From contig JAEEWP010000002.1 in assembly GCA_016287465.1 (NCBI GenBank), forward strand, positions 1-45,582: a stretch of 45,582 bases of DNA. The letters are read 5' to 3'. Position 1 is the stretch's first letter. Every line of letters starts with the position of its first letter. Source of the DNA: Bacillales bacterium (lineage in GTDB: Bacteria; Bacillota_I; Bacilli_A; RFN20; CAG-826). Of this stretch, positions 1-36,901 are shown one piece after another. A model generated the notes under the pieces. It was given only the letters and a program-made list of their open reading frames with translations, ran no database searches and was not told the DNA's origin. The translations under genes were made by a program, and so were the position numbers.

Positions 1-73
1 TGGGCCAAGGCGGAGTTGAACCGCCGACACAAGGATTTTCAGTCCTTTGCTCTACCAGCTGAGCTACCGGCCC
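1..73 (-). tRNA. tRNA-Phe (anticodon GAA)
   Basis: Reverse complement GGGCCGGTAGCTCAGCTGGTAGAGCAAAGGACTGAAAATCCTTGTGTCGGCGGTTCAACTCCGCCTTGGCCCA folds as a cloverleaf. Anticodon loop is CTGAAAA and the T arm is GGCGG/CCGCC. It ends at discriminator A on the window edge, so an encoded CCA cannot be seen. Confidence 0.9.
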
Positions 74-4438: not shown

Positions 4439-4513
4439 TGGTTGCGGAGGGTGGATTTGAACCACCGACCCCCAGGTTATGGGCCTGATGAGCTACCACT
4501 GCTCTACCCCGCG
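4439..4513 (-). tRNA. Initiator tRNA-fMet (anticodon CAT)
   Basis: Reverse complement CGCGGGGTAGAGCAGTGGTAGCTCATCAGGCCCATAACCTGGGGGTCGGTGGTTCAAATCCACCCTCCGCAACCA. It has the C1:A72 mismatch and three G:C pairs closing the anticodon stem, both initiator hallmarks. CCA is encoded. Confidence 0.9.
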
Positions 4514-17311: not shown

Positions 17312-17816
17312 AGTTTCCTTTCTGCGCATTTGCGCGCAACTATATTTATAGTCGCCTATTATCAAAAGATATGTGAGCGCTTCCAAAAAGGATTATTTTG
17401 CGATTTTTAGTTTCTTTTCTTTCAATCTGGTTTGAATAACAAAGTGACGTTTCTTGCGTTTTCGGAGGGGTTTTGGGGGTCAAAATCCGCAACATAATCG
17501 ATTTTCGAAAAGGCGAAAAACAACAAAATTGTCATAATTGCCTCCCCTGCTTTTTGTGACCCGAAAACCTAGATCGTAAAAAGATTTTTCCTTTAATGCA
17601 CATTCAGGGAAATTAAGAAATTATGCTATCTTTTTAACTTTCTTGACTGAAAAAGCAAGCGGTTACGCGACTATTTACGATGTCAAACTTTTGTATAGTT
17701 TGTACAAAGAAAGTCAATTGTAAAAACCGCAAAAAATAGATAATCATGTTATATGGACAAAGTTGCGTTTTTTGATTAACATTAATTGCACATTTTCTTT
17801 CGATTTTTTTGAACCT

Positions 17817-18773
17817 ATGGAAAGCAGTCGTATTGAGGTCGTCAAGTACCCTAAGGTCAAACACATCAAGATGTTCGTCAACAAGATCAAGTTCGTCGAG
17901 AACCATCTTCATAACGACTTCGAGATCCTTTTGAATTTGACTGGAAAAGGCATCCTTGAGATCAATAACGCCACCTACTTATATGGTCCTGGCGACATCA
18001 TTTTCATCAACTCCGGCGACGTCCATAGCATCTCCTCCCACTTGGATGAGGACAACAAATCGCGTGCGAGCGGGCCTACATCCCTCTTCATTCAGATCAG
18101 CAACCACTTCTTAAGGGAATATTTCCCGCAGATCCATAGCTCCGTCTTCAAAAGCGGAAACCTCCGTTCTTCCTTAAGCGCGGACGATTATACGCGTATC
18201 AGCAAGCTTTTCACCGATGCGGCGATTGCTTATTTCTCGGAGACCAACTACTTCCAGCTCGATGTCGTTGCCTCTATCTCTAAGGCCTTAGCCTACGTCT
18301 ACCGCCACCTCGACTACAAAGTCATCAATGAGGTCCAGAAAGAGAGAATCAATCGCAAGAAGAGCAGGATGGAGAGAATCATCTCTTATATCGACGCGAA
18401 CTTCGACTCCCAGATTAGACTCGAGGATATCGCTACAAAAGAGAATCTCTCTGTCACCCACTTATCCCATATCTTCTCCTCTTCCTTCGGAATGACCTTC
18501 CAGGAATTCGTCAACATCAAGAGGATGGAACAGTGTATCCGTCTTATGGCCAACAAAGAGAAGACCCTCCTTGAGATCTCTTACGAATCAGGATTCTCCG
18601 ATTCCAAATACATGAACAAGATGTTCTTAAAGAGATTTGGATGCACCCCTAAGGAATATAGAAAGAAATACGGCACCTATTACGATGGACCTGCACCGGA
18701 GACAGGCAAATTCGAGCTCATCTATAACGATCAGGATTCCCTCAAAGCCGTTGAGAAATATATCGGCAAATAA
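17817..18773 (+). CDS. AraC/XylS family transcriptional regulator
   Basis: N-terminal cupin-like block (GPGDIIFINSGDVHSI). C-terminal double HTH (LEDIATKENLSVTHLSHIF...GFSDSKYMNKMFLKRFGCTPKEYR). The track ORF starts at a TTG; I prefer the first ATG at 17817, though its SD is weak. Confidence 0.88.
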   Translation: MESSRIEVVKYPKVKHIKMFVNKIKFVENHLHNDFEILLNLTGKGILEINNATYLYGPGDIIFINSGDVHSISSHLDEDNKSRASGPTSLFIQISNHFLREYFPQIHSSVFKSGNLRSSLSADDYTRISKLFTDAAIAYFSETNYFQLDVVASISKALAYVYRHLDYKVINEVQKERINRKKSRMERIISYIDANFDSQIRLEDIATKENLSVTHLSHIFSSSFGMTFQEFVNIKRMEQCIRLMANKEKTLLEISYESGFSDSKYMNKMFLKRFGCTPKEYRKKYGTYYDGPAPETGKFELIYNDQDSLKAVEKYIGK

Positions 18774-18820: not shown

Positions 18821-19885
18821 TCATTCGATGATGTTGTTGTCCACCAAGATATTGCCATAGGCTTCACCCAAACGGATGCAGTCTTTGGTGATGTAATGGT
18901 ATTTGTTGAAACCGCCATCGAGGTCACTATTGCCACCGATCTGGAGCTTTAAGCCACCTTCATCGATGAAGGAACCGTTAATGATGTAATTGTTCTCTCC
19001 CTCTTCGGCAATGGCTTTCTTCATGTCATTGAGGCCACCCTTTCTCTCGGCGTTATAGCCGATACGCCCGCCATCATAGATGGTGCAGTCGACGAAGGCG
19101 ATGTTCTCGCCATCCTCATCCACCGCATTCGGAGCGAACTCACTTCTGAACTCGGAGATGAGATGCCTCATCTGGGTGCCGTAGTTAGCGTTATTGCCAT
19201 CGGATTCGCCCTGGTGCCAAAGCCATGCTTTGATTTCTGGCTCAAAACCAAGTTCTTCGATAAGCTCAAGGTTATTGTGAACGAACTCCTTGGTCTCGGT
19301 CCAAAGCTTACCTTCGGTACCGTTGCCATCCTCGGCAGTACGCCAAATGTATTCTTTGTTGACGCCATTCTGGTCGCCTAAGGATGAGCCACCATATGCG
19401 CTCTTGATGAAGAAGATTGGCGTCTCTTCGGAAGCTTTTTCTCTAAGGATATTGGCAAGACCGATCTCAGGCCCGATGAATCTTGTCTGGTTCGCCATGC
19501 CGACAGAGAGGTTTTTGAATTCTCCTGCCATAGGATCATCCATGTTCGAGGCGTTCACCTTGATTGGGTTCTCATATGGATAGAAGCAACGGAAGGACAT
19601 CTGAATCTCTGGGACGTTGCCTTCGATATAGTCACTGGCATCATATTCGGTGCCAAGTTCTTCGAATGCTTTCTCAAGCCAATTGTCATCGTCTTCCTTG
19701 TGGTTAGCGTTAGCTTTCTCGCCCCAAAGAGTGCTGCCTTCCATGTTGGATTGGCCAGACATGACGATGACTTGGGCTTTCTTAGGCCCTTCTTCCACTG
19801 GAGTTGAGGATGCTTTCGGAGCGTCGTTACAAGAAGCAAGCCCCAAAGAGAGCAAGACGGAAGTAACTAATAATCTTTTCTTCAT
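18821..19885 (-). CDS. SASA/CE6-type (GQSNM) carbohydrate O-acetylesterase lipoprotein, paralog 1
   Basis: Lipobox LASC. Blocks VIVMSGQSNMEGST and WLWHQGESD, typical of the sialate O-acetylesterase (SASA, DUF303)/CE6 SGNH-like fold. The SD AAGGTGA overlaps the stop of the upstream paralog. Confidence 0.8.
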   Translation of the reverse strand: MKKRLLVTSVLLSLGLASCNDAPKASSTPVEEGPKKAQVIVMSGQSNMEGSTLWGEKANANHKEDDDNWLEKAFEELGTEYDASDYIEGNVPEIQMSFRCFYPYENPIKVNASNMDDPMAGEFKNLSVGMANQTRFIGPEIGLANILREKASEETPIFFIKSAYGGSSLGDQNGVNKEYIWRTAEDGNGTEGKLWTETKEFVHNNLELIEELGFEPEIKAWLWHQGESDGNNANYGTQMRHLISEFRSEFAPNAVDEDGENIAFVDCTIYDGGRIGYNAERKGGLNDMKKAIAEEGENNYIINGSFIDEGGLKLQIGGNSDLDGGFNKYHYITKDCIRLGEAYGNILVDNNIIE

Positions 19886-19894
19886 AGTTTCACC

Positions 19895-20971
19895 TTAATG
19901 TTCGATGATGTCGTTATCGATAAGAATGTTGCCATAGGCCTCACCGAGTCTGAATAAGTCTTTGGTGACGTAGTGATATGTGTCGTAGCAGCCACCTAAG
20001 TTCTGGTTGCCACCGATCTCAAGACCTAAGCCTTCGCTGTCTTTGCAGGAAGCGTTGATGATGTAGTTGTTCTCGCTTTCTTCGGCGATGTTCTTTTTGG
20101 TCTGGTTGAGGGTATCGACACCACTATAAGTGAGACGGGTACCATCGTAGATGGTGCAGTCGACGAAGGCGATGTTGTCGCCATCTTCCTCTGGGGCGTA
20201 TTCAGCGAATTCTTCTCTGAATTCTCCAAGGAGGTGACGCATGAAGACGCCATACTGCTCTTCGCCAGCCTGGGCGTTGTTATCGGTATCGGATTCACCC
20301 TGGTGCCAAAGCCATGCTTTGATCTCTGGGTGGAAGCCAGCATCTTCGATTAATTTGAGGTTATTGTGGACGAACTGCTTGGTCTCGGTCCAAAGCTCAC
20401 CTTCTTCACCGTTGTTGTCACTAGCGACTTTCCAATGTTTCTTGGAGCCATTTTGGATTTTGAAGGAAGAGCCAGAGAATGCGCTCTTGATGAGATAGAC
20501 AGGTTTTTCTTCTGTTCCAACTTCATTGCTATGAAGGACGTTTCCTAAACCGATCTCTGGTCCCATGGCAACATCTTTTTGCCCCATGCCAACCTTAAGA
20601 TTAAGGAATTTGCCTGCCATCTTATCAGTGGTATTGGAAGCGTGCGCGTTAGCGGCTGGATTGCCTCCACCATATGGATAATATCCGCGGTATGAGCACT
20701 GGATGTCTGGCATGCCATCGAAGAAGATGTCGGCGTCGATAGGATCATGTCCTTCTTGGACGAGCTCTTCGCAGGCGTTTCTAAGCCAGCCTTGGCCATT
20801 GTCGTAATAGGTGCTGCCTTCCATGTTGGACTGGCCAGACATGACGATGACCTGGACTTTAAGCGGATCCTCTTCAACTGGAGGCACACTTGATGTGGCT
20901 GGAGCTGGTTTGTCGCAGCCTGCTAAAGCAAGAGCCAAAAGCAAAGAAGATAGGGTTAATGTTTTTTTCAT
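19895..20971 (-). CDS. SASA/CE6-type (GQSNM) carbohydrate O-acetylesterase lipoprotein, paralog 2
   Basis: Lipobox LAGC with the same GQSNMEGST and WLWHQGESD blocks. It sits 9 nt upstream of paralog 1. Confidence 0.8.
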   Translation of the reverse strand: MKKTLTLSSLLLALALAGCDKPAPATSSVPPVEEDPLKVQVIVMSGQSNMEGSTYYDNGQGWLRNACEELVQEGHDPIDADIFFDGMPDIQCSYRGYYPYGGGNPAANAHASNTTDKMAGKFLNLKVGMGQKDVAMGPEIGLGNVLHSNEVGTEEKPVYLIKSAFSGSSFKIQNGSKKHWKVASDNNGEEGELWTETKQFVHNNLKLIEDAGFHPEIKAWLWHQGESDTDNNAQAGEEQYGVFMRHLLGEFREEFAEYAPEEDGDNIAFVDCTIYDGTRLTYSGVDTLNQTKKNIAEESENNYIINASCKDSEGLGLEIGGNQNLGGCYDTYHYVTKDLFRLGEAYGNILIDNDIIEH

Positions 20972-21104: not shown

Positions 21105-22712
21105 ATGAAGAAGTTCTGGAGAACCGTCACATCACCGAAGCTCTTATTCGCTATTCTCATCATCCTTGAGATATTCCTCATCGTCGGAGGATATATCTTC
21201 CTTGATTCCTATCTCGCCGTCGTACTTGAAAGCGAGGTCGAGAATGCCGAAAACCTTGCTGACTTCATCAAAATCCTCGTCGTCCTTATCTTCAGGGTCG
21301 CTTTATCGATCGTCGCCTTAGTGGTCTTCTTCAAGATCATCAACCGCGAGGAGAACCCGGAATACAAGATCCCTTGGATCACCTTCCTTTTCCTCTTCCC
21401 TGCCATCACCCTCACCTTCTACTTCGTCTTCGTCCGTGTCCGCATGAGAAGGAAGGACGCGAAGATCGTCGTCCCGACCATGAAATACCTTGATAATAAA
21501 GCCAAGGAACACGCGGATATCGAAAAGGCCAATGAAGAAGAAATAGAGCCGAATTGCCGGGGAATTTTCCATTATCTCCACGAAACGACAAGGCTTTTCA
21601 CCTCGAAAAACAATAGGCTGACCTACTTTAAGAACGGTGAGGAATTCTTCCCTTCTCTTATTGAAGATCTCAAGAAAGCCAAGAAGTTCATCTTCTTAGA
21701 GTTCTTCATCATCGCCGAAGGCAAATGGTACAAGAAGACCCTTGAGGTCCTTAAAGAAAAAGCCAAGGAAGGCGTCGATGTCAGGATCATCTTTGATGAC
21801 ATCGGCTGCAATAGAACCATCCCAGGCAACTTCGTCCATAAGCTCAAGAAGATGGGAATCACCGCTTATCCTTTCCATCCGATCACCCCAATCCTCTCTA
21901 ACCTCATCAATAACAGAGACCACCGCAAAATAGTTATCATTGACCATCAGATTGGCTATACGGGCGGCATGAACCTCGCGGATGAGTACGCGAACGACAA
22001 GAAGAGATTCGGATACTGGAAAGACACGATGATCAAGATCGAAGGCGAAGGCATCAAAGACCTCATCGTCACCTTCCTTCAGAACCACGACTTATGCACC
22101 CACAAGATAACGGATTATTCGATCTTCACCAAAGGTGATGATTATCCTCATTTCGAGGATAAAGGCGCTGCGTTCTTCTTTGGTGACACCCCTGGGCCAT
22201 ATGACGATAATGAGCAAGTCGGTGAGCAGAATTACATCAACATGCTGAGTGTCGCCACAAAGAGGGTTGATATATCAACTCCATACCTCATTTGCACATA
22301 TCCTCTTATCAGAGCGCTTCAGAGTGCGGCTAAGCGTGGCGTTGAGGTCAATCTCATCGTCCCAGGCATCCCAGATAAGAAGATCGTCTACTGGATGGCC
22401 AAATGCCAGTTCCATCTCTTCCTTGAAAGCGGAATCCATGTTTATACATACACGCCTGGCTTCAACCATCAGAAAGGCATGCTTGTCGATGATAAAGTCG
22501 CCTGCGTTGGCACGATCAACTTCGATTTCAGATCTTTGACCCACCACTTCGAGGATGCGATGGTCATATATGACGCACCGTGTTTGAGGGATATCAAAAA
22601 AGACTTCGAGGAGATGATCAGTGTCTCCAAGAAAGTCCCTGTCGATTTCAAGGCGAACGCTTTCCAGAGATTCGTTTCTGGGGTCTTTAAGATCTTCCGC
22701 GTTCTCTTGTAG
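21105..22712 (+). CDS. cls: Cardiolipin synthase
   Basis: 535 aa with two N-terminal TM helices and two PLD HKD motifs (HRKIVIIDHQIGYTGGMN and HQKGMLVDDKVACVGTIN). Confidence 0.95.
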   Translation: MKKFWRTVTSPKLLFAILIILEIFLIVGGYIFLDSYLAVVLESEVENAENLADFIKILVVLIFRVALSIVALVVFFKIINREENPEYKIPWITFLFLFPAITLTFYFVFVRVRMRRKDAKIVVPTMKYLDNKAKEHADIEKANEEEIEPNCRGIFHYLHETTRLFTSKNNRLTYFKNGEEFFPSLIEDLKKAKKFIFLEFFIIAEGKWYKKTLEVLKEKAKEGVDVRIIFDDIGCNRTIPGNFVHKLKKMGITAYPFHPITPILSNLINNRDHRKIVIIDHQIGYTGGMNLADEYANDKKRFGYWKDTMIKIEGEGIKDLIVTFLQNHDLCTHKITDYSIFTKGDDYPHFEDKGAAFFFGDTPGPYDDNEQVGEQNYINMLSVATKRVDISTPYLICTYPLIRALQSAAKRGVEVNLIVPGIPDKKIVYWMAKCQFHLFLESGIHVYTYTPGFNHQKGMLVDDKVACVGTINFDFRSLTHHFEDAMVIYDAPCLRDIKKDFEEMISVSKKVPVDFKANAFQRFVSGVFKIFRVLL

Positions 22713-22761
22713 CTTCCTTACATTGTTGCCAAATATCTAGATGGTAGGTTAAAATACAAAA

Positions 22762-22812
22762 GAGTCCTCGCGAGTACTATTATGGCATTAACATCTCGAG
22801 GCTCTTTTTATT
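22762..22812 (+). terminator. cls terminator (hairpin of repeat copy 1)
   Basis: GAGTCCTCG...CGAGGCTC stem followed by TTTTTATT, 50 nt after the cls stop codon. Confidence 0.7.
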
Positions 22813-22872
22813 ACTATAAGTCACTCATATAAGGCATATTCACTTTGTAAACAATCGAGTTATAATAAGACC

Positions 22873-22932
22873 ATAAGAACGGAGTCCTCACAAGCACTTT
22901 ATGGTTGTTGTCTTAGGAGGCTCTTTTTTATT
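22873..22932 (+). ncRNA. Candidate small RNA, unit 2 (about 60 nt)
   Basis: TTCACT (22839..22844), a 16-nt spacer, then TATAAT (22861..22866). A hairpin GAGTCCTC...GAGGCTC and TTTTTTATT follow. There is no coding potential conserved between the copies. Confidence 0.35.
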
Positions 22933-22992
22933 ACTATAAGTCGCTCATATCAGGCATATTCACTTTGTAAAAATTCGAGTTATAATAAGACC

Positions 22993-23052
22993 ATAAGAAC
23001 GGAGTCCTCGCGAACACTTTAATGGAGTTAGTTGTGAGGCTCTTTTATTTTA
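22993..23052 (+). ncRNA. Candidate small RNA, unit 3 (about 60 nt), with a 3' end overlapping the convergent small ORF
   Basis: Identical promoter-like box (TATAAT at 22981..22986). A 13-bp hairpin GAGTCCTCGCGAAC...GTTGTGAGGCTC is followed by TTTTATTTT. Confidence 0.35.
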
Positions 23053-23134
23053 CTAGCCAGGCCAATAAGGATAATAAGAGACAAATCAGAGCGATCTTAA
23101 GAAGGCTTGCGTCTTCTTTTTGAAGGTCTTTCAT
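23045..23134 (-). CDS. Hidden small ORF, 29 aa, hydrophobic (MKDLQKEDASLLKIALICLLLSLLAWLVK)
   Basis: Below the ORF-track length cutoff. The ATG is preceded by GAGGTG at 7-nt spacing. It has a single predicted TM helix and its stop codon lies inside the T-run of repeat unit 3. Confidence 0.4.
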   Translation of the reverse strand: MKDLQKEDASLLKIALICLLLSLLAWLVK

Positions 23135-23244
23135 TGGACATCACCTCGCTTTCTGTGCTGAGATTGCGAGGGCCCGTTCCGAGTTTTAACGGCTTTGCTT
23201 TGCCACTTTACATATAGTGGCGATTTTCTATTTTTTCAGGAAAA

Positions 23245-23296: not shown

Positions 23297-24376
23297 TTAG
23301 TCAAGAAGGTTGTTATCAAGGATAACTTTGCCATAGGCCATGCCTAAGCGGAGGCTGCTCTTGACGTTATAGTGCATGTTGTCGCCACCAGGGTTGCCAG
23401 GTTTGAGCTCGTTCTCAGCGGTTGGCTCTTCGTTGCCATAGATGTCGACGATGTAGTTGTTGTCGGCGCTGTCAGCGAATTCCTGTTTGACGGCGTTCAT
23501 GTCTTTGGAGGTCTGGGCGCCCCAAGCTGTGCCGCTTCCCTGATAGATCATGCCATCGACGAAGGCGATGTTCTCGCCATCCTGGTCTTTGGCATATTCA
23601 GCGAAGTCGGTTCTGAAGAGTTCGACCATATCACCAAGGCGTTGCTTATATTTGGCGATCTTCTCGGTCGCGGAATCAGATTCGCCCTGATGCCATAACC
23701 AGCCTTTGATGACTGGATGCCAGCCTTCATCTTCGATGAGTTTGAGGTTGTTCTCGATGAATGGCTTGCAGAAAGTGTGGTACATGTTGATTTCTGGCCA
23801 ATTGCCTTCTGCATCTTTGACTGGCCAGTTGTAGTCGGTTCCGCTTTGTTCGAAGCCGCTGCCACCGGAAGCCATTTTGATGAAATAGATTGGCTTTTCG
23901 GCGGTAGCCTCATCCTTTAAGGCATAAGCCATGCCAAGCTCTGGACCCATCTTGGAGGAGTTAAGACCCATACCGGTTTTGGTTGGGAGGAACTTGCCTT
24001 TGAACCTCTCGGTGGTGTTCGTGGCGTTGACCTGGGTGTTGCCATCGAGGTTGTTGTGGTTAAGCTGACCATAGCCGGCGCAGTAGAGAGAAGTCTGGAC
24101 GGATTCGACGCCGGTCTCGGTTAAGACCTCTGGATCCTCAAGACCCATCTCTTCGAAGGCCTGGGCGATGTAGTCGGTGCTTCCGCTCTTGAAGGAAGTG
24201 TTTCCTTCCATGTTGGATTGACCGGATAAGACGAAGACGTTGACTGCGAGTTCGTCAACTTCTGGTTCGCTGGTTCCCGCTGGCTGTGAGGATGATCCTG
24301 CTGGTGGGGTGCAGGAAGCTAATCCCATGGCGAAAAGAAGCGCGGATAAAGACATTAGTTTGTTAAAGCGTTTCAT
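23297..24376 (-). CDS. SASA/CE6-type (GQSNM) carbohydrate O-acetylesterase lipoprotein, paralog 3
   Basis: Start reassigned to MKRFNKLM (ATG at 24376, SD AGGAGA). Lipobox LASC. Blocks VFVLSGQSNMEGNT and WLWHQGESD. Confidence 0.8.
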   Translation of the reverse strand: MKRFNKLMSLSALLFAMGLASCTPPAGSSSQPAGTSEPEVDELAVNVFVLSGQSNMEGNTSFKSGSTDYIAQAFEEMGLEDPEVLTETGVESVQTSLYCAGYGQLNHNNLDGNTQVNATNTTERFKGKFLPTKTGMGLNSSKMGPELGMAYALKDEATAEKPIYFIKMASGGSGFEQSGTDYNWPVKDAEGNWPEINMYHTFCKPFIENNLKLIEDEGWHPVIKGWLWHQGESDSATEKIAKYKQRLGDMVELFRTDFAEYAKDQDGENIAFVDGMIYQGSGTAWGAQTSKDMNAVKQEFADSADNNYIVDIYGNEEPTAENELKPGNPGGDNMHYNVKSSLRLGMAYGKVILDNNLLD

Positions 24377-24410
24377 AATTTCTCCTAATTTGAAAAAATC
24401 ACTTTCCGTT

Positions 24411-24439
24411 ATTTTAAGCAAATCGTAAATTTTCTACAA
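24411..24439 (-). promoter_or_regulatory. Candidate sigma-A promoter of esterase paralog 3
   Basis: Minus strand TTGTAG (24439..24434), a 17-nt spacer, then TAAAAT (24416..24411), about 35 nt upstream of the ATG. Confidence 0.5.
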
Positions 24440-25025: not shown

Positions 25026-26033
25026 TTAGCTTGCGAGTCCTCGCATCACTTTGAAATAGAAGGAGAATTCGAATGCGCCGAAATAGAATTTCCACTCATG
25101 GAGATCGAAATCGGTGATGTCGCTCGTGGAGAATTCCATGACATACCACCCTTCGAGAGGTTTGCAGCTCTCGTTTACGAGCTCGCAATTAACCTTATCC
25201 GTGGAGTCGAGATCCATACCAATGAAATCTAAGTCCGGGTCTAAATATAGTCCGCTACCTAGATTGAAACGGTTGACCCTGATTCTTATTTGATAATCGC
25301 GATCTCTCTCGAAATGATAGAGGTCGATAGGTTCGCCATCTTTCAGATCGCTATCCATAACGAGCCTGGAGTCATCACCTTTAAGACAGATGCTATCCAA
25401 GATCATTTGCCTGATTCCGTAGACATTGTCCCACTCAAAGTAACAGCCTTTCTCCTCGCTCCACTTCAAGTGGCCCCAGTCCACTATTTTTCTTTCCTCG
25501 AATTCGCGAGGGCCCATAAAATGACCGAGAACCGGAAGGAAAACCAGTTCGCCTTCCCTTATGTCGAGAGCGTATTGATAGGAAGCGAAGCGGCCGAATT
25601 TCTCAACCGTCATATCCTCTTGGCTGAAAAGGGGCTTGGCGTTCTTGATGTCATAGACCGTGAAACCGTCATAGCGCATTTCGTTATGGGCAAAAACGAT
25701 TTCGCGGTATCCATCGCCATTGATGTCGGAGGCATAGATATAAGGGTCATAATGAAGGTTTACCCCGATTCTTGTATCGCCGTAATAAAGCATTGACATG
25801 CTGCTGCCGGTAACGAGGTTGAAACGTTCAGTGAACTCGGGAACGCGGAAATAAAAAACATGGTCATCGGATTCAAGTTTCGGATCATACATTCCCGCGA
25901 GGATGAGTTCATCTTTAGGCCCTTCTTCAATAGAAGTATCCGTCGCTGAGGAATAAGGCTGTTTAGTTTCCCAAACGCATGCGGAAAGCATCGAAATCGC
26001 CAGCAAAGAAAGGATAAAAGTGTTCTTTTTCAT
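25026..26033 (-). CDS. Lipoprotein of unknown family (DINGDGYRE family), paralog 1
   Basis: Lipobox LSAC. Shared blocks EGPKDELI, ASDINGDGYREIVF, VYDIKNAKPLFSQEDMTVEKFG, HLKWSEEKGCYFEWDN and EFSTSDITDFDLH. Confidence 0.8.
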   Translation of the reverse strand: MKKNTFILSLLAISMLSACVWETKQPYSSATDTSIEEGPKDELILAGMYDPKLESDDHVFYFRVPEFTERFNLVTGSSMSMLYYGDTRIGVNLHYDPYIYASDINGDGYREIVFAHNEMRYDGFTVYDIKNAKPLFSQEDMTVEKFGRFASYQYALDIREGELVFLPVLGHFMGPREFEERKIVDWGHLKWSEEKGCYFEWDNVYGIRQMILDSICLKGDDSRLVMDSDLKDGEPIDLYHFERDRDYQIRIRVNRFNLGSGLYLDPDLDFIGMDLDSTDKVNCELVNESCKPLEGWYVMEFSTSDITDFDLHEWKFYFGAFEFSFYFKVMRGLAS

Positions 26034-26071: not shown

Positions 26072-27034
26072 CTAATTGGCCAATCCTTGCATCACTTTGG
26101 AATAGAAGGAGAATCCATGGAATCCGAAATAGTAAGCGAAGTCGTGCAATTCGAAATCGGCGATGTCGCTCGTGGAGAATTCGATGACATATTTCCCGGT
26201 TTGTGGATCGCAGCTTCTTTCCAAGATGTAAAAAGTCGGCGTTTGGGATTTACTTGAGTCCCATTCCATGCTTAGGAATCCTGGGTCTAAGTACTTGGTG
26301 AAATCATCGCGCACTACGGTTATTTCCATTTGGTAAGAGGTGTCTTTCTCGAGATAGTAGAGATCGATGGCCTCACCATCTTCTTTACGACCTCCATCCA
26401 AATGAAGCTTAGTGTGTCCGTTCGCCGTGTAAACGCCTTCGAGAACGACGCTTCTGACATCGAAAAGGTTTTCCCACTCTATGGAGCAATTTCCCTCACT
26501 CCACTTGAAGCGGCCATAATCGACAACGTCATTTTCTCTGTTTCCGCCATTAAGGACCCTTAAGACCAATCGGTCATCTCTGATGGAAAAATCGAAATTC
26601 TTATACTTTGTGTAATAACCGTATTTCTCCATGGTCATATTGTTTTGATCGAAGAGTCTTTTGGCGTTCTTGACATCATAAACGACGACATGAAAGGAAG
26701 GATCAAGAACCGTTCTCTCTTTGAAAATCAGTTCTCTATATCCGTCTCCGTTGATGTCAGAGGCGCAATACTCCAAGGCCCCTTCGCTGATGAGCGTCTC
26801 ACCATAGCTGAGGCTTGGCAAACGGCTGCTGATCTGGATGTTGGAAGAGACAAAAGCCTCCTTAAACTCCGGAAGATAGAATTTGTAGTATGAATCATTG
26901 ATCACTTGGGCTGCAATACGCTCATCCTTAGGCCCCTCTTTTTGGGAAGAAGTCTCTTTTTCAGAGCTTGGCGGGGTGCATCCTGAAAGCACGGAAATCG
27001 CCAGCAAAGGTAGGATAAAAATGTTCTTTTTCAT
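26072..27034 (-). CDS. Lipoprotein of unknown family (DINGDGYRE family), paralog 2
   Basis: Start reassigned to MKKNIFILPLLAISVLSGC (ATG at 27034). It has the same blocks as paralog 1. Confidence 0.8.
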   Translation of the reverse strand: MKKNIFILPLLAISVLSGCTPPSSEKETSSQKEGPKDERIAAQVINDSYYKFYLPEFKEAFVSSNIQISSRLPSLSYGETLISEGALEYCASDINGDGYRELIFKERTVLDPSFHVVVYDVKNAKRLFDQNNMTMEKYGYYTKYKNFDFSIRDDRLVLRVLNGGNRENDVVDYGRFKWSEGNCSIEWENLFDVRSVVLEGVYTANGHTKLHLDGGRKEDGEAIDLYYLEKDTSYQMEITVVRDDFTKYLDPGFLSMEWDSSKSQTPTFYILERSCDPQTGKYVIEFSTSDIADFELHDFAYYFGFHGFSFYSKVMQGLAN

Positions 27035-27060
27035 AGGAAGTTCTCCTTTCGTTATTGTGT

Positions 27061-28074
27061 TTATTCGACGACTTTGTAGTTGATCTTGAATCCGTAATTG
27101 GTGAGACACCAATCCCAGACTCTCTCTTCACATGGATTGACTACGGTGAAGTAATAGAAGTATTTGCCTGTGGCAGGATCGTTCTGAACTGGGGATCTGT
27201 TCCAAGGGCTACGGATCTCTCCGAAATGGGATGGGTTGTCGTTACTCCAGACCACATCGATAGGCAGATCACCAAGCTCACGGTCGGTTTTGTTCCGAGT
27301 GATCTTGAACTCCATGTAATACTGCTTGCTTGTCTCGAATGTATAGACATTCCCTGGGTTCGATGGCAGGACAGGCGTCAAATCATCATCGTTGATGAAG
27401 AAACGGACGAACTCGATTTTCTCAATTCCAAGGATGTTCTCCCATTCGAAGTAACAGCCTTTCTCCTCGCTCCACTTGAGATGGCCATGATCCATTATGG
27501 AGTTCTCACTGTAATTGCCTGCATATGGAAGGAAGGTCAAACGGCCGTCTTTCATGTCGTAGTAAAAGCGATAGAGGGCGATGTGGCCGAACTCCTCGAT
27601 CGTCATATCGGCTTGCTTAAGAAGGGTTTTGTTGTTCTTAAGGTCATAGACTGAGAATTCCCTGTTCCTGTTATTTCCTTCTTCAAAGAAGACGATCTCA
27701 CGGAAACCATCTCCATTGATGTCGGAGGCGATGAGGCGGAAAGCGTTATATAAGTGATCGGAGATGACTGTGTCCCCATATTTCAGAATGTGCTGACTGG
27801 CTGTAGGAGAAGAGACTTTGAGAGGCTCGCTGAACTCAGCGATGCGGATCAAAAGATTCCCCTCTGCATCTTTTTCGAAATCATTGCCAAGGCCAGTAGC
27901 GATGAGCTCGTCTTTCGGCCCTTCTGGTTCGGAAGAAGCTAAAGATGAGGACGAGGAAGAAGTCTCTGGCTCAGTGCTAGAAAGCAAGGAGGATTCCTTC
28001 GCCTCTGACTGAGGAACGCATGAACAAAGCACTGCTGCTGTTAACAAAGAAACGACAAGACTGCTTTTTCTCAT
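27061..28074 (-). CDS. Lipoprotein of unknown family (DINGDGYRE family), paralog 3
   Basis: Lipobox LCSC. Blocks ASDINGDGFREIVF, VYDLKNNKTLLKQADMTIEEFG and HLKWSEEKGCYFEWEN. The C-terminus has diverged. Confidence 0.8.
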   Translation of the reverse strand: MRKSSLVVSLLTAAVLCSCVPQSEAKESSLLSSTEPETSSSSSSLASSEPEGPKDELIATGLGNDFEKDAEGNLLIRIAEFSEPLKVSSPTASQHILKYGDTVISDHLYNAFRLIASDINGDGFREIVFFEEGNNRNREFSVYDLKNNKTLLKQADMTIEEFGHIALYRFYYDMKDGRLTFLPYAGNYSENSIMDHGHLKWSEEKGCYFEWENILGIEKIEFVRFFINDDDLTPVLPSNPGNVYTFETSKQYYMEFKITRNKTDRELGDLPIDVVWSNDNPSHFGEIRSPWNRSPVQNDPATGKYFYYFTVVNPCEERVWDWCLTNYGFKINYKVVE

Positions 28075-28185: not shown

Positions 28186-29466
28186 TTAAGCAACAAGGCT
28201 GATTTGTCCGTTCGCGCACACCACTGTCTCCAAGGAAGACCAAGAATTCCAATCCTCCGCTTTCTCAACGCTCTCCCAATCGCTCGTGGTCCCTCCATAG
28301 GTGAGGGTTTTTAAGGATGGGCAATTGCCGAACATGTGTTCTCCGATACGAGTGAGGTTTCCTCCAATCGAGACGGATTCAAGCAAAGGGCAATCCGCGA
28401 TGGCATAATCGCTAAGGGTCATCACGCCAGGCATGACCAGCCTTTTAAGCGCAAGGCATGTGTCGAATATGTCCCAAGCTATATATATGACGCTATCAGG
28501 AAAAACCACCTCTTCAAGGCTCACGCAATAACCGAAAGCCGAGTCTTCGATAAGTTTCAAACCATTTCCGAAATTAATCGTTTCGAGCTCTTCGCAACCG
28601 TCAAAGGCATATGCTCCTATCGTTCGCACAGTGTCTGGGATATCGATGGAGGTCATGGTCGCCCCACAATAAGATCCAGCGCCGATTTCAACAGTGTTTT
28701 CAGGCACATAGAAAGATCCTTTGTCCAAAGGATAAGACACAACCTTCGTTTTGTCTTTGTTCATAAGAACGCCATTTTCAGAAGTGAGATATCTGTTCTC
28801 CTCGCTGACCGTGAAGGCTTCTATCGAATAGCAATAGGCGAAGGCGCCCTTCGCGATCCAATCAAGCTCAGGCCCGATCTCAACGTCCGTCAAAGAATGG
28901 CATTCGCCAAAGGCGAACTGTTCGATTTGCTCAAGGCTATCAGGGAAGTATATGGATGAGAGGGATTCGCACCACCAAAAAGCATAATCGCAGATGATCG
29001 CAACGCCCTCCCCTAATGTCACCTTTGATAAAGACGAACAATACTGGAAAGCGTATTCCTGAATCCTGTAGACGCTGCCAGGAATGGTGATGGAGGTCAT
29101 TTTGCTCGCTGCGGAAAAACCACGTTCTTTGATGAGGGTGACAGGAAGGCCTTGGTAACTCTCTGGGATGACGACGTCCCCTTCGATCAATTCGTTGGCA
29201 GCTGAAACGATGTAACGATCGGTGGCTAACTCGAATTTGAGTTTGTTCAAAGTCGGTGTCAAAGAACCTTCGGTGGAAAGATTCAAAGAATCCTCCGAAG
29301 AGGAAAGAGGTTCTGATACAACACTAGAGGACTCGCTCACGCCAGGATAAGGTTCTGTCTTAGTCCAATCTTCGTTGTCGATGGCGCCTAGGGGAAAATA
29401 GAAGCAAGAAGAAAGCGACAAAGTGGCTAAGGCGCCAATTAAAGCAGGAATTGCACGGGTTTTCAT
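28186..29466 (-). CDS. BspA-type leucine-rich-repeat (LRR_5) surface lipoprotein 1
   Basis: Start reassigned to MKTRAIPALIGALATLSLSSC (ATG at 29466). It has repeated IP(D/E)SV..I...AF..C.SL units and the C-terminal cap TYGGTTSDWESV...VVCANGQISL. Confidence 0.85.
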   Translation of the reverse strand: MKTRAIPALIGALATLSLSSCFYFPLGAIDNEDWTKTEPYPGVSESSSVVSEPLSSSEDSLNLSTEGSLTPTLNKLKFELATDRYIVSAANELIEGDVVIPESYQGLPVTLIKERGFSAASKMTSITIPGSVYRIQEYAFQYCSSLSKVTLGEGVAIICDYAFWWCESLSSIYFPDSLEQIEQFAFGECHSLTDVEIGPELDWIAKGAFAYCYSIEAFTVSEENRYLTSENGVLMNKDKTKVVSYPLDKGSFYVPENTVEIGAGSYCGATMTSIDIPDTVRTIGAYAFDGCEELETINFGNGLKLIEDSAFGYCVSLEEVVFPDSVIYIAWDIFDTCLALKRLVMPGVMTLSDYAIADCPLLESVSIGGNLTRIGEHMFGNCPSLKTLTYGGTTSDWESVEKAEDWNSWSSLETVVCANGQISLVA

Positions 29467-29480
29467 ATTGTTTCCCTTTC

Positions 29481-30827
29481 TTAAATCACCGATACATCGC
29501 CATCCGAGCAATGGATGGTTTCGACGAAGGATTCGCCGAGCCAATTCTCGGAACGATCGATTTGGTTCCACTCGCTCATCGTGCCTTCGTAGTTTAGGGC
29601 GGTTAGATTGTCGCAAAACCGGAACGCGTCGTCCTCAATGCTCTTAAGCCCTCTGTTGATAGTGAGCGACTCAAGAAGCTTGCACGATGAGAAAGCGCCT
29701 TTGCCAATCGACACGATAGTGCTAGGCAAAGACAATGAGGCGATATCCGTGCATTCGAAGCAATACGGAGAGATGGAAGTCAGTGTTTCGTTGAGGTTTA
29801 CTTCCGCTAGGTTATCACAACCGGCGAAAGCCCCTTCCCCCATGACGGCTACGTTGCTGCCTAAAGTCACGGTCTTGAGATTGTCGTTTCCGCGAAAAGC
29901 CGTATCACCTATCTTGATTATGTTATCCGGAATGACGAGACTTTCGCCGATGTAAGCGCAACTAGAATATGCCATATCTCCGATATAGGACACCGTGTCG
30001 GGGATATAGAATGGGCTCTTGGCGCTAGGGAAACAAAGGACTTCGTTTTGGGCCTTGTCATAAAGGACCCCGTTGATGGACGAATAGGTCTCGTTTTCTA
30101 CGTCGACGCCGATATGCTCGAAAAGGCTGTTGTTCATGAAAGCGCCATAGCCGATGTAGTCGACGCTTTTCGGGATATAGACCATGGTTATGCTCGTTGA
30201 GCTATATGCGCAGTCCCCAATATGGGTAAGCCCTTCTGGGAGAACGAGGGCGTTGCTAATGCCCGTGCATCCGTTGAAAGCGTTATCGCCGATATGTTGG
30301 ACGTTCTTTCCAAAACTTAGGAACTTGGTATAGGAGCATTCGAGGAAGGCGCCTTTTCCGATCGTGATGGTGCTATCTGGGATGGAGATCATTTCGATGC
30401 CACGGCTATATGCGAAGGCATAGTCTCCGATGATCGTTAAACCATTTCCAAAAGACACTTCGCGAAGGCCATAACAATCCCCAAAGGCCCATTCACCGAT
30501 CTCGACGATGGTGTCTGGGAGACGGATGGACGACACATATGAGTGCGAGAAAGCCTTTTCCTTCACCCGTGTGACAGGAAGGCCGTTATAGGTCCTAGGG
30601 ACGATGACTTCCCCGGTGATCGTCTTATTGAAGTTACCGGTCACGCTATAGGATTGTTCGTCTTCATTAAGAACGAACGAGATATTCCCTTTCGCTTCTT
30701 CGGGGCTACTAAGGGATGAGGATTCTTTCGCGCTCGAAAGAGAATCTGACTCGTTATCGATGGTGCAAGAAGCCAATGAAAAAACGAACAAAGCGGTGAT
30801 CAATGCGGGAATTGCTCGGGTTTTCAT
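29481..30827 (-). CDS. BspA-type LRR surface lipoprotein 2
   Basis: MKTRAIPALITALFVFSLASC, LRR_5-like units, and cap YEGTMSEWNQI...IHCSDGDVSVI. Confidence 0.85.
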   Translation of the reverse strand: MKTRAIPALITALFVFSLASCTIDNESDSLSSAKESSSLSSPEEAKGNISFVLNEDEQSYSVTGNFNKTITGEVIVPRTYNGLPVTRVKEKAFSHSYVSSIRLPDTIVEIGEWAFGDCYGLREVSFGNGLTIIGDYAFAYSRGIEMISIPDSTITIGKGAFLECSYTKFLSFGKNVQHIGDNAFNGCTGISNALVLPEGLTHIGDCAYSSTSITMVYIPKSVDYIGYGAFMNNSLFEHIGVDVENETYSSINGVLYDKAQNEVLCFPSAKSPFYIPDTVSYIGDMAYSSCAYIGESLVIPDNIIKIGDTAFRGNDNLKTVTLGSNVAVMGEGAFAGCDNLAEVNLNETLTSISPYCFECTDIASLSLPSTIVSIGKGAFSSCKLLESLTINRGLKSIEDDAFRFCDNLTALNYEGTMSEWNQIDRSENWLGESFVETIHCSDGDVSVI

Positions 30828-30845
30828 GTTTTTTCTCTTCTTTTG

Positions 30846-32201: not shown

Positions 32202-32217
32202 AAGTTTCCTCCTTCCT

Positions 32218-33552: not shown

Positions 33553-33566
33553 AATTCTTACCTCAC

Positions 33567-34940: not shown

Positions 34941-35056
34941 AAATGCCATCCCCTTTCTGATGAACATTTGCAATGTAATGATAGATAATTTCACTTTCTT
35001 TGAAAAGTGATCTGAGGTCTCTCTATTGATATGACAACTACGTTGAGCAAAACCGC

Positions 35057-36751: not shown

Positions 36752-36901
36752 AGATGCCATCCTCCTTTTTGCCAGATGTTTTCTTCATATTATTGAGGAC
36801 TTCGAAAAAGGAAAGAATTATTTGCATTTTTTGCTTTTTATTTTCAAAACGTATGCATTTAAAGCAAAAAAGAGGGGTTTTGCAGGGATTTTTGCAAAAA
36901 C

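What the first reader, a model, noticed from the sequence alone, without database searches (positions are those of the whole stretch)
22726..23052. Three tandem 120-bp promoter-plus-hairpin units: candidate multicopy small RNA genes
The period is exactly 120 bp. The 78-nt inter-hairpin segment is almost identical between copies (4 substitutions) and contains TTCACT-16 nt-TATAAT. This predicts TSSs near 22873 and 22993. Copy 1 has a weaker TTGCCA-18 nt-TAAAAT. Each predicted transcript is about 55-60 nt: a constant 5' end AAGACCAUAAGAACG, then a hairpin with conserved base GAG(U)CCUC/GAGGCUC and a U-run. The hairpin interiors have diverged but stay paired through compensatory and G:U changes: CGCGAAC/GUUGUG in unit 3, CG/CG in unit 1 and AAG/CUU in unit 2. 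The 5' arm exposes CCUC(GC), an anti-SD-like sequence. No ORF is conserved between copies. Tandem multicopy sRNAs with C-rich anti-SD motifs that control surface or lipoprotein mRNAs are known (LhrC1-5 in Listeria, csRNAs in streptococci). That would fit this lipoprotein-dense locus, but the parallel is purely architectural. The region lies at the centre of the window and has no feature in the ORF track.
Basis: partly seen in the sequence, partly recalled or inferred. Interest (0 to 1): 0.7.

Follow-up and report, generated by a model that had tools for sequence, protein, structure and literature searches.

The report
Small-peptide gene with tandem antisense RNAs
The three repeats are most likely small antisense RNA genes facing a missed 29-residue membrane-peptide gene, which looks like a type I toxin-antitoxin module with extra copies of the RNA antidote gene; nothing here has been tested experimentally.

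Summary
Three promoter-hairpin-U-run units lie at 22762, 22882 and 23002, exactly 120 bp apart, and occur nowhere else in the window. No Rfam family matches.

It has a GAGG Shine-Dalgarno, and its stop codon abuts the unit-3 hairpin.

Eleven syntenic loci from related rumen Bacilli MAGs and metagenome contigs carry the same layout: cls, then 2-3 units, then the peptide gene, then an esterase gene. The peptide has three alleles and mostly synonymous changes (15 synonymous to 1 non-synonymous in one pair). It is a real coding gene.

Its mRNA has a Shine-Dalgarno-sequestering hairpin with two compensatory pairs. It also has a predicted 5'-3' closing helix whose 3' strand is complementary to the sRNA 5' tail.

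The best reading is a type I toxin-antitoxin-like module. Unit 3 is the cis-antisense RNA sharing a bidirectional terminator. Units 1 and 2 are duplicated, retained antitoxin genes.

The LhrC/csRNA-style trans-regulator idea is not supported. Arm covariation in the sRNA hairpins is not statistically demonstrable. Toxicity and transcription are untested.

Verdict: a new variant of a known kind, of moderate interest.

The parts
22726..22755 (+). Promoter-like site of unit 1 (TTGCCA-18-TAAAAT). It begins 14 nt after the cls stop codon (cls ends at 22712).
   Evidence: Conserved as TTGCCA/TTGCAA-18-TAAAAT or TATAAT in most related loci (TTGAAA in L010, TTGTCA in L011).
22762..22809 (+). Unit 1: hairpin GAG(U)CCUC...GAGGCUC plus U5. 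Predicted sRNA of about 48 nt with almost no 5' tail. It probably also serves as the cls terminator.
   Evidence: Covariance model hit of 61.6 bits.
22839..22866 (+). Promoter-like site of unit 2 (TTCACT-16-TATAAT).
   Evidence: The -10 box is kept in every inner unit of all related loci.
22873..22929 (+). Unit 2: predicted sRNA of about 57 nt, made of the 5' tail AUAAGAACG, a hairpin and U6.
   Evidence: The start site is inferred as 7 nt after the -10 box.
22959..22986 (+). Promoter-like site of unit 3 (TTCACT-16-TATAAT).
22993..23051 (+). Unit 3: predicted sRNA, the cis-antisense RNA. Its terminator hairpin (23002-23042) and U-run overlap the stop codon and 3' end of the convergent peptide gene, so it acts as a bidirectional terminator.
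   Evidence: perfect duplex, -101 kcal/mol.
23045..23134 (-). 29-aa ORF MKDLQKEDASLLKIALICLLLSLLAWLVK, the candidate type I toxin or small membrane peptide.
   Evidence: - Listed.
- Three alleles in 12 loci.
- 15 synonymous to 1 non-synonymous codon changes between L004 and L009; only this frame shows the synonymous excess.
- Residues 14-28 have a mean Kyte-Doolittle value of 2.95.
23144..23171 (-). Shine-Dalgarno-sequestering hairpin in the peptide mRNA 5'UTR: CCUCGC-AA-UCU-CAGCAC-AGA-AA-GCGAGG. The GAGG at 23147-23144 lies 9 nt upstream of the AUG.
   Evidence: 98.4% paired, with 2 pairs showing compensatory change; 2 of 500 shuffles reach the observed values.
23173..23180 (-). 5'UTR element GGAACGGG. 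It is an inverted paralog of the sRNA 5' part and is predicted to pair with the mRNA 3' tail CUCCGUUCU (complement of 22995-23004), closing the mRNA 5' to 3'.
   Evidence: - The closing helix is in the minimum-free-energy structure of all 9 loci.
- Weak nhmmer hits of the unit model fall on this element on the opposite strand.
23200..23223 (.). Conserved palindrome GCCACT-N8-AGTGGC in the upstream part of the peptide mRNA leader or promoter region. On the + strand it is followed by a T-rich run and looks like a terminator.
   Evidence: Invariant in the related loci. L015 shows a change on both sides, to GTCACT/AGTGAC. Its role is unresolved.

Best explanation
**What it is.** The region is a chromosomal type I toxin-antitoxin-like module in which the antitoxin gene has been multiplied.

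**The peptide mRNA.** The minus strand encodes an mRNA of about 210-230 nt for a 29-residue peptide. The peptide has a polar head followed by a 15-residue hydrophobic helix. The mRNA is predicted to be kept inert in two ways:
- a local hairpin buries its Shine-Dalgarno sequence;
- a helix joins its 5'UTR (GGAACGG) to its 3' tail (CCGUUCU).

**The sRNAs.** The plus strand carries three small RNA genes, each with its own sigma-70-type promoter and intrinsic terminator.
- Unit 3 converges on the peptide gene and shares its terminator hairpin, so its RNA is perfectly complementary to the last 55 nt or so of the peptide mRNA.
- Units 1 and 2 are tandem paralogs. They keep the hairpin base, and unit 2 also keeps the 5' tail AUAAGAACGGAG, so they still pair extensively with the same 3' end.

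**Proposed mechanism (inferred, not shown).**
1. The single-stranded sRNA tail invades the mRNA 3' tail and displaces the 5'UTR strand.
2. Pairing spreads into the terminator hairpin.
3. The duplex is cut by RNase III, so the mRNA loses its protective 3' hairpin and is degraded. The Shine-Dalgarno sequence stays sequestered throughout.
4. The extra copies raise the antitoxin dose.

**Origin (partly shown).** The array arose by tandem duplication of the module followed by loss of the peptide part. Recombination between units keeps reshuffling them.
For: **Shown directly**
- The ORF has a Shine-Dalgarno sequence, and its stop codon abuts the unit-3 hairpin.
- Eleven related loci from rumen MAGs and metagenome contigs are all syntenic (cls, units, ORF, SASA esterase), with 2-3 units each.
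- The ORF is under purifying selection. Synonymous to non-synonymous codon changes are 15:1, 11:2 and 7:1 within allele 2. Variable sites by codon position number 8, 5 and 20. No other frame behaves this way. The binomial probability is 1.7e-7.
- A third allele, MRSFRKEEAFLLKIILICLLISLLALLVK, occurs in L015.
- Hydrophobic residues number 13 of 15 in residues 14-28 (my count). This exceeds the 10-of-15 criterion that Fozo et al. used for short type I toxins (PMC2887945).
- The Shine-Dalgarno hairpin carries two compensatory pairs.
- A 5'-3' closing helix appears in the minimum-free-energy fold of all 9 loci.
- The sRNAs pair with the mRNA 3' end at -49, -62 and -101 kcal/mol.
- The -10 boxes are conserved even where the upstream DNA has been replaced.

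**Evidence on origin**
- L015 carries a second, decayed whole module in tandem.
- L004 u2 is followed by a 17-nt remnant of the ORF 3' end.

**Known mechanisms of this kind**
- 3'-overlapping antitoxins RatA, SR4, SR5 and SR6 act through RNase III (PMC8464778).
- par/Fst has convergent genes with a shared bidirectional terminator and a hairpin that sequesters the Shine-Dalgarno sequence (PMC7472228).
- dinQ has two tandem sRNA paralogs, agrA and agrB (PMC3567139).
Against: - There is no expression evidence for any of the RNAs.
- Toxicity of the peptide is untested. It matches no toxin family in Pfam or NCBIfam and nothing in the PDB.
- No convincing sigma-70 promoter for the peptide mRNA was found on the minus strand (and my reading).
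- The minus-strand terminator has only a moderately U-rich tail (CGUUCUUAU), so the 3' end of the mRNA is uncertain. The 5'-3' helix depends on where that end lies.
- The sRNA hairpin arms show no measurable covariation.
- No second pairing site near the ribosome-binding site stands out from shuffles.
- The module is confined to one narrow clade at one chromosomal site. It was not found on plasmids or viral contigs.
- Unit counts come from short-read MAG assemblies, and two contigs break inside the array.
Confidence: 0.6

Rival explanations
1. The RNA layout is the same, with cis-antisense sRNAs controlling the convergent small ORF. However, the peptide is a non-toxic small membrane protein, for example a modulator of a membrane enzyme or transporter, and the locus is not a toxin-antitoxin system.
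For: - The peptide matches no toxin family.
- Its hydrophobic stretch is short at 15 residues.
- The locus sits at a fixed core-genome position next to cardiolipin synthase in every locus, and was not found on plasmid or viral sequences.
Against: - Every architectural hallmark of type I systems is present: peptide size, a sequestered Shine-Dalgarno sequence, a 5'-3' closed mRNA, a convergent antisense RNA, tandem duplication and a decayed duplicate.
- The peptide alleles are incongruent with the flanking cls phylogeny. This is more typical of selfish or conflict-type modules.
Confidence: 0.2
2. The units are multicopy trans-acting sRNAs of the LhrC or csRNA type. Their C-rich CCUC(GC) motif would block the ribosome-binding sites of distant mRNAs, such as those for surface or lipoproteins.
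For: - The units are multicopy, each with its own promoter and terminator.
- A CCUC motif is present in all of them.
- The 5' part of the sRNA is more conserved than the 3' arm.
- Trans targets elsewhere in the genome could not be examined.
Against: - No Rfam match.
- CCUC is paired inside the basal stem in every fold.
- The best pairing with 69 translation-initiation regions in the window equals the shuffled expectation.
- A far stronger target lies directly opposite.
- No TTTAAG-type response-regulator repeat is visible upstream (read; the CiaR box consensus is from my memory).
Confidence: 0.1
3. The units are only duplicated bidirectional terminators or insulators between the convergent cls and peptide/esterase transcription units. 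The promoter-like boxes are not functional and no discrete sRNAs are made.
For: - Unit 1 sits 50 nt after the cls stop codon and would terminate cls.
- The hairpins evolve like terminators: the stem is kept, the sequence drifts, and there is no covariation signal.
- Consensus promoter matches are not evidence of function (caveat stated).
Against: - The -10 box and its distance to the hairpin are kept in 30 units. This holds even where the upstream sequence has been replaced by unrelated DNA carrying an extended -10 (L004 u3) or has strongly diverged (L006 u2).
- The 5' tail is invariant.
- Simple terminators would not need 78 nt of conserved spacer.
Confidence: 0.08
4. The unit is a generic dispersed repeat, of the REP or MITE type, that happens to be clustered here.
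For: The repeat is short, hairpin-containing and varies in copy number.
Against: - Only 3 copies occur in the 45.6-kb window, all at this site.
- A scan of 185,579 species genomes found matches only at the syntenic site, at one site in each of eight related MAGs, plus two chance matches.
- None occur in outgroup cls loci.
Confidence: 0.02

Closest known systems
par (Fst / RNA I-RNA II) type I toxin-antitoxin family of Enterococcus and other Firmicutes
   Same: - The toxin mRNA and a regulatory RNA of about 60 nt are transcribed convergently and share a bidirectional intrinsic terminator.
- The complementary terminator stem-loops act as a contact site.
- An intramolecular 5' stem-loop sequesters the Shine-Dalgarno sequence.
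- The peptide is about 30 aa, begins MKD... and has a charged pair at the N-terminus (PMC7472228).
   Different: - No DRa/DRb direct repeats give a second pairing site at the start codon.
- The peptide lacks the PXXXG motif and the charged C-terminal tail. Its polar part is N-terminal, and it matches no Pfam or NCBIfam toxin family.
- There are several antitoxin genes instead of one.
[quoted passage not shown]
   Same: - The antisense RNA pairs with the 3' end of the toxin mRNA.
- The expected outcome is RNase III-dependent decay.
- SR4 additionally causes refolding around the ribosome-binding site from a distance (PMC8464778). The alternative 5'UTR pairings seen here would allow something similar.
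   Different: - The overlap is only about 55 nt, against 114-123 nt, and the sRNAs are about 55 nt, against 100-220 nt.
- The locus is in the core chromosome and not on a prophage or the skin element.
- The peptide shows no sequence similarity to these toxins.
- The antitoxin genes form an array.
dinQ-agrAB locus of Escherichia coli
   Same: - One small single-helix membrane peptide (27 aa) is paired with two tandem sRNA paralogs.
- Each paralog has its own promoter and terminator.
- The paralogs have graded complementarity to the one mRNA (25 of 31 and 30 of 31 nt) and unequal roles (PMC3567139).
   Different: - agrA and agrB are transcribed divergently from dinQ and pair with its 5' region.
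- dinQ is controlled by LexA.
- The system is in Gammaproteobacteria and shares no sequence relation.
- In the present locus the number (2-3) and order of units vary between species.
Tandemly duplicated type I loci (ibs-sib, ldr-rdl, zorO-orzO/zorP-orzP, pneumococcal fst-A/B)
   Same: Type I modules tend to be duplicated in tandem within a single intergenic region (PMC2887945). L015 shows such a whole-module duplicate.
   Different: In those loci the toxin and antitoxin are duplicated together. Here, in most species, only the sRNA gene with 12-17 nt of the ORF's 3' end is repeated, and a single peptide gene remains.
LhrC1-5 (Listeria) and csRNAs (streptococci), multicopy trans-acting sRNAs
   Same: Several similar short sRNA genes lie close together, each with its own promoter and terminator, and each carries a C-rich motif.
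   Different: - No Rfam match.
- The C-rich motif is base-paired rather than exposed.
- No trans target was found in the window.
- A cis target is present.

Membership tests
Type I toxin-antitoxin systems (general class) | Small (<60-70 aa) hydrophobic peptide with a predicted transmembrane stretch | tested here: met
   The peptide is 29 aa. Residues 14-28 (IALICLLLSLLAWLV) have a mean Kyte-Doolittle value of 2.95. By my count 13 of 15 are hydrophobic, against the 10-of-15 rule of PMC2887945.
Type I toxin-antitoxin systems (general class) | The peptide ORF is a real, selected coding gene | tested here: met
   Synonymous to non-synonymous codon changes are 15:1, 11:2 and 7:1. The excess is seen only in this frame. 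There are three alleles.
Type I toxin-antitoxin systems (general class) | An antisense or complementary sRNA gene with its own promoter and terminator | tested here: met
   Promoter and terminator motifs are present and conserved. The duplexes are -49 to -101 kcal/mol. This is sequence-level evidence only; transcription has not been shown.
Type I toxin-antitoxin systems (general class) | Structured toxin mRNA that limits its own translation (sequestered Shine-Dalgarno sequence, long-range 5'-3' pairing) | tested here: met
   The Shine-Dalgarno hairpin is 98.4% paired with 2 compensatory pairs. A 5'-3' helix appears in the minimum-free-energy fold of 9 of 9 loci.
Type I toxin-antitoxin systems (general class) | The peptide is toxic when overproduced and the sRNA neutralises it | not testable with these tools
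   This needs expression experiments.
par / Fst-Ldr family | Convergent genes sharing a bidirectional intrinsic terminator | tested here: met
   The ORF stop codon (23047-23045) abuts the unit-3 hairpin (23002-23042). There is a U-run on the + strand and a U-rich tail on the - strand.
par / Fst-Ldr family | DRa/DRb direct repeats giving sRNA complementarity at the toxin's start codon and Shine-Dalgarno sequence | tested here: not met
   Duplexes between the sRNAs and the mRNA 5' region have z-scores mostly between -1.6 and +1.6 against shuffles, with one exception (L004 u1, z = -2.9). Only a 6-nt CCUCGC/GCGAGG match exists.
par / Fst-Ldr family | Fst-type peptide: hydrophobic N-terminal helix with PXXXG, a conserved Trp, then a charged C-terminal tail | tested here: not met
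   No Pfam or NCBIfam hit at E<=10. The sequence has no Pro, the polar part is N-terminal, and the C-terminus is a single Lys.
Bacillus TxpA/BsrG/BsrE/YonT systems | Antitoxin RNA overlaps the 3' end of the toxin mRNA | tested here: met
   Unit 3 overlaps 23045-23051 of the ORF and all of its terminator. The perfect duplex is about 55 nt.
Bacillus TxpA/BsrG/BsrE/YonT systems | Sequence homology of the toxin or sRNA to those families | tested here: not met
   No Pfam or NCBIfam hit and no Rfam hit.
dinQ-agrAB | Homology to DinQ/agrAB, LexA operators, divergent arrangement | tested here: not met
   The arrangement here is convergent. The peptide is unrelated and no Rfam hit was found. Only the idea of one toxin with several sRNA paralogs is shared.
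LhrC / csRNA multicopy trans-acting sRNAs | Match to the family covariance models | tested here: not met
   Rfam 15 at the gathering threshold finds only 3 tRNAs in the window. At E<=10 the region gives only chance snoRNA-like hits.
LhrC / csRNA multicopy trans-acting sRNAs | Exposed C-rich motif that pairs with the Shine-Dalgarno regions of target mRNAs | tested here: inconclusive
   CCUC is inside the stem in all folds. No translation-initiation region in the window scores above shuffles. The rest of the genome was not available.

The most novel reading that the evidence does not exclude
The array could be more than extra antitoxin dose: it could be a repertoire. The hairpin interiors fall into about five types. 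Each type occupies the first, middle or last (mRNA-overlapping) position in different species. The peptide alleles are exchanged between lineages independently of the flanking cls gene. A cell carrying several diversified antitoxin units would then neutralise peptide mRNAs ending in any of several terminator variants. That would give cross-immunity to alleles that arrive by recombination, in effect a small RNA-based library of antidotes kept in flux by unit shuffling.
Probability: 0.1. Interest if true: 0.75.

Novelty: new variant of a known kind. Interest (0 to 1): 0.47.

Why it matters
- If confirmed, this would add a new peptide and sRNA family to type I toxin-antitoxin systems, from an uncultured rumen Bacilli lineage.
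- It would be a natural case in which only the antitoxin gene is amplified into a recombining 2-3-copy array against a single toxin gene.
- It offers a simple system for asking how antitoxin dose and partial complementarity are selected.
- It offers a way to ask how a 5'-3' closed toxin mRNA is opened by a toehold at its 3' tail.
- It shows how whole-module duplicates decay into orphan antitoxins.
- Practically, a real 29-codon gene and three sRNA genes lie in a stretch that the first-stage ORF track showed as empty and where the called genes on the related contigs include no such ORF. The repeat also breaks short-read assemblies at this site.

Tried and rejected
**Searches that found nothing**
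- Rfam at the gathering threshold and at E<=10: nothing relevant.
- Protein-level searches with the peptide. The 29-aa peptide is too short for the search for homologous proteins and the search for related loci. tblastn against 72,556 plasmids gave no match. Pfam, NCBIfam and PDB gave no match.
- A scan of viral contigs with the hairpin pattern gave 0 hits.
- Two of the ten genome hits, L002 (Oscillospiraceae) and L003 (Methylacidiphilales), are chance matches. They have no unit by the covariance model.

**Tests that came back negative**
- Covariation in the sRNA hairpin. RNAalifold supports only the invariant basal stem. The swap test was not significant, p=0.16. Pair counts show 0 compensatory pairs. 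I therefore do not claim structural covariation for the sRNAs.
- A par-type second interaction site at the peptide's ribosome-binding site does not stand out from shuffles.
- Trans targets among 69 translation-initiation regions in the window are not above shuffles.

**ORFs considered and dismissed**
- The + strand 33-aa ORF (23022-23123) is closed by an early stop in L010 (my reading), and the opposite-strand frames show no synonymous excess.
- The 27-aa GTG ORFs on the minus strand inside units 2 and 3 lie in a frame that is truncated or extended differently in L004, L006, L007, L008 and L009.

**Unresolved or absent**
- A sigma-70 promoter for the peptide mRNA: no consensus site on the minus strand. 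Candidates read by eye, such as CTGAAA-17-TATATA, are weak.
- Outgroup loci with 58-60% identical cls (L013, L014) have no module and no synteny.
Full report

Yes. Tandem Repeats Finder finds a 120-bp period at 22798-23021 (92% matches, score 390). The hairpin-base pattern GAGTCCTC-N(20-40)-GAGGCTCTTTT hits three times, at 22762, 22882 and 23002. None of 100 shuffles gives a hit. The 23-nt constant 5' part occurs twice and nowhere else in the window.

All three units fold into a hairpin followed by a U-run. No Rfam family matches, either at the gathering threshold or at E<=10. An nhmmer profile and a covariance model built from the units find only these three copies in the 45.6-kb window.

**2.

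The array lies between convergent genes. Upstream on the + strand is a cardiolipin-synthase-type PLD gene (21105-22712). Downstream on the - strand is a SASA-family esterase gene (23297-24421) with its own strong terminator at 23279-23253.

Between the esterase terminator and unit 3, the minus strand carries a 29-codon ORF (23045-23134), MKDLQKEDASLLKIALICLLLSLLAWLVK. A GAGG lies 9 nt before its AUG, and its stop codon touches the unit-3 hairpin. Unit 3 is therefore convergent with this ORF, and the two share one hairpin as a bidirectional terminator.

**3. Related loci**

One scan of 185,579 species genomes with the hairpin pattern returned ten loci. Eight of them are rumen MAGs labelled Bacilli, Bacillales or Erysipelotrichaceae, and two are chance matches. 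A metagenome scan added L011. Contigs carrying close cls homologs added L012, L015 and L016.

Every related locus has the same order: cls, units, small ORF, esterase. The covariance model finds 30 full units in 12 loci (the window plus 11 related loci), and none in outgroup or chance loci.

Unit number is 2 in L008, L009, L010 and L011. It is 3 in the window, L001, L004, L005, L006, L007 and L016. These counts come from short-read assemblies. Two contigs (GCA_016648615.1 and L012) stop at or inside the array.

The nearest outgroup cls genes, at 58-60% identity, have other neighbours and no module. The module is thus confined to one narrow clade and one chromosomal site. It is not a dispersed repeat.

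**4. The ORF is a real gene**

There are three peptide alleles:
- MKDLQKEDASLLKIALICLLLSLLAWLVK
- MKDFLKEDD[SG]LLK[LM]VLICLLLSLLALLTK
- MRSFRKEEAFLLKIILICLLISLLALLVK

Within allele 2 the DNA differs at 10-16 sites, but codon changes are 15 synonymous to 1 non-synonymous, 11:2 and 7:1. Variable sites fall 8, 5 and 20 by codon position. No other frame on either strand shows this pattern. The probability of 15 or more of 16 being synonymous is 1.7e-7.

Residues 14-28 are strongly hydrophobic. They exceed the criterion Fozo et al. used for short type I toxins. The peptide matches nothing in Pfam, NCBIfam or the PDB.

**5. The peptide mRNA**

The 5' leader is almost invariant across alleles that differ heavily at synonymous sites. 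It contains the hairpin CCUCGC-AA-UCY-loop-RGA-AA-GCGAGG, which buries the Shine-Dalgarno sequence. This hairpin is 98.4% paired and two of its pairs show compensatory change. Only 2 of 500 shuffles reach the observed values.

Just upstream lies GGAACGG(AG). The unit profile hits this element weakly on the opposite strand, so it is an inverted paralog of the sRNA 5' part. In the minimum-free-energy fold of a model transcript, this element pairs with the 3' tail CUCCGUUCU in all nine loci, closing the mRNA 5' to 3'. That 3' tail is the exact complement of the sRNA 5' tail AUAAGAACGGAG. The fold assumes that the mRNA ends about 9-12 nt after the hairpin, which has not been shown.

**6. The sRNAs**

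Inner units keep the -10 box at a fixed distance from AUAAGAACGG in every locus. This holds even where the upstream DNA has diverged (L006 u2, TTCGCT-17-TACAAT). It also holds where unrelated DNA carrying an extended -10 has replaced it (L004 u3, TGtTATAGT). This argues that promoter function is under selection.

All three window sRNAs are strongly complementary to the mRNA's 3' end: -49, -62 and -101 kcal/mol. Three things are absent:
- a significant second pairing site at the ribosome-binding site;
- a local trans target;
- demonstrable arm covariation in the sRNA hairpins.

Each hairpin does fold, at -10 to -16 kcal/mol.

**7. Evolution of the array**

The hairpin interiors fall into about five types. 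A given type occupies different positions in different species. For example, the window's unit-3 type is unit 1 in L001 and L004, and the window's unit-2 type is unit 1 in L005 and L009. The units therefore recombine.

Inner units are followed by 12-17 nt resembling the ORF's 3' end, which is clear in L004. L015 has a second complete but decayed module in tandem. Its sRNA-like hairpin lacks a U-run. Its 29-codon ORF is non-hydrophobic but sits behind the same Shine-Dalgarno hairpin. The array thus most likely arose by duplication of the whole module followed by loss of the peptide part.

Peptide alleles do not follow the flanking cls sequence. L016 is closest to the window and L007 in cls, yet carries allele 2.

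**8. Mechanism**

The best-supported reading is a type I toxin-antitoxin-like module. Unit 3 is the cis-antisense antitoxin. Units 1 and 2 are retained paralogs that add dose.

The steps I infer are:
1. The sRNA tail binds the mRNA 3' tail as a toehold.
2. Pairing spreads into the terminator hairpin.
3. RNase III cleaves the duplex and the mRNA decays, as described for RatA, SR4, SR5 and SR6.

None of this has been shown. Transcription, the toxicity of the peptide and its promoter are all unverified.

**9. Comparison with known systems**

The layout resembles par/Fst in having convergent genes, a shared bidirectional terminator and a 5' stem-loop over the Shine-Dalgarno sequence. It fails two defining features of that family, the DRa/DRb repeats and the Fst peptide signature.

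It resembles the Bacillus 3'-overlap systems in the site of pairing, but shares no sequence with them. It resembles dinQ-agrAB in having several sRNA paralogs for one toxin, but the geometry differs and there is no homology.

I file it as a new variant of a known kind: a new peptide/sRNA family within type I-like systems, with an antitoxin-only tandem array. Interest is moderate.

Noticed in passing
window 23200-23235: A conserved palindrome GCCACT-N8-AGTGGC is followed on the + strand by GATTTTCTATTTTTT. The scan flags it as a + strand terminator. It could stop antisense read-through across the whole peptide gene, form a 5' stem-loop of the peptide mRNA, or act as an operator over a weak promoter. 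L015 shows a two-sided change, to GTCACT/AGTGAC.
   Followed up: partly
L016 vs window/L007; L005/L011 vs L004/L009: Peptide alleles are incongruent with the last 300 nt of cls. L016 differs from the window and L007 at 16 and 11 sites but carries allele 2. L005 and L011 (allele 1) are closest to L004 and L009 (allele 2). This suggests allele exchange at the locus.
   Followed up: partly
L015 1760-1945: A second, decayed copy of the whole module lies in tandem. It has an sRNA-like hairpin without a U-run. It also has a 29-codon ORF, MKNITNYSVIKSICLFPLNSGESLRCYYQ, behind an intact CCUCGCAA/UUGCGAGG Shine-Dalgarno hairpin.
   Followed up: partly
L004 6017-6090: Unit 2 is followed by a 17-nt remnant of the peptide ORF's 3' end (TTATTTAGTCAGCAGCA). 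Unrelated DNA follows, supplying an extended -10 promoter (TGtTATAGT) for unit 3.
   Followed up: partly
L012 4654-4675; GCA_016648615.1 contig: Two assemblies break at or inside the array. L012 ends inside unit 1. The repeat seems to disrupt short-read assembly, so unit counts in MAGs may be unreliable.
   Followed up: no
window 28186-36760 (- strand): Six consecutive paralogous genes encode BspA-type leucine-rich-repeat proteins (Pfam LRR_5, E-values 1e-57 to 1e-110). This is a tandem surface-protein family expansion.
   Followed up: no
window 18821-19885, 19895-20971, 23297-24421 (- strand): Three SASA-family carbohydrate-esterase paralogs flank the cls gene and the module. An AraC-type regulator lies at 17763-18773.
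   Followed up: no
window 25026-26033, 26072-27112, 27061-28074 (- strand): Three ORFs of 335-346 aa have no Pfam match. Two of them overlap by about 50 nt in the mechanical ORF list.
   Followed up: no
window 1-73, 95-168, 4442-4513 (- strand): Three tRNA genes. These are the only Rfam gathering-threshold hits in the window.
   Followed up: no
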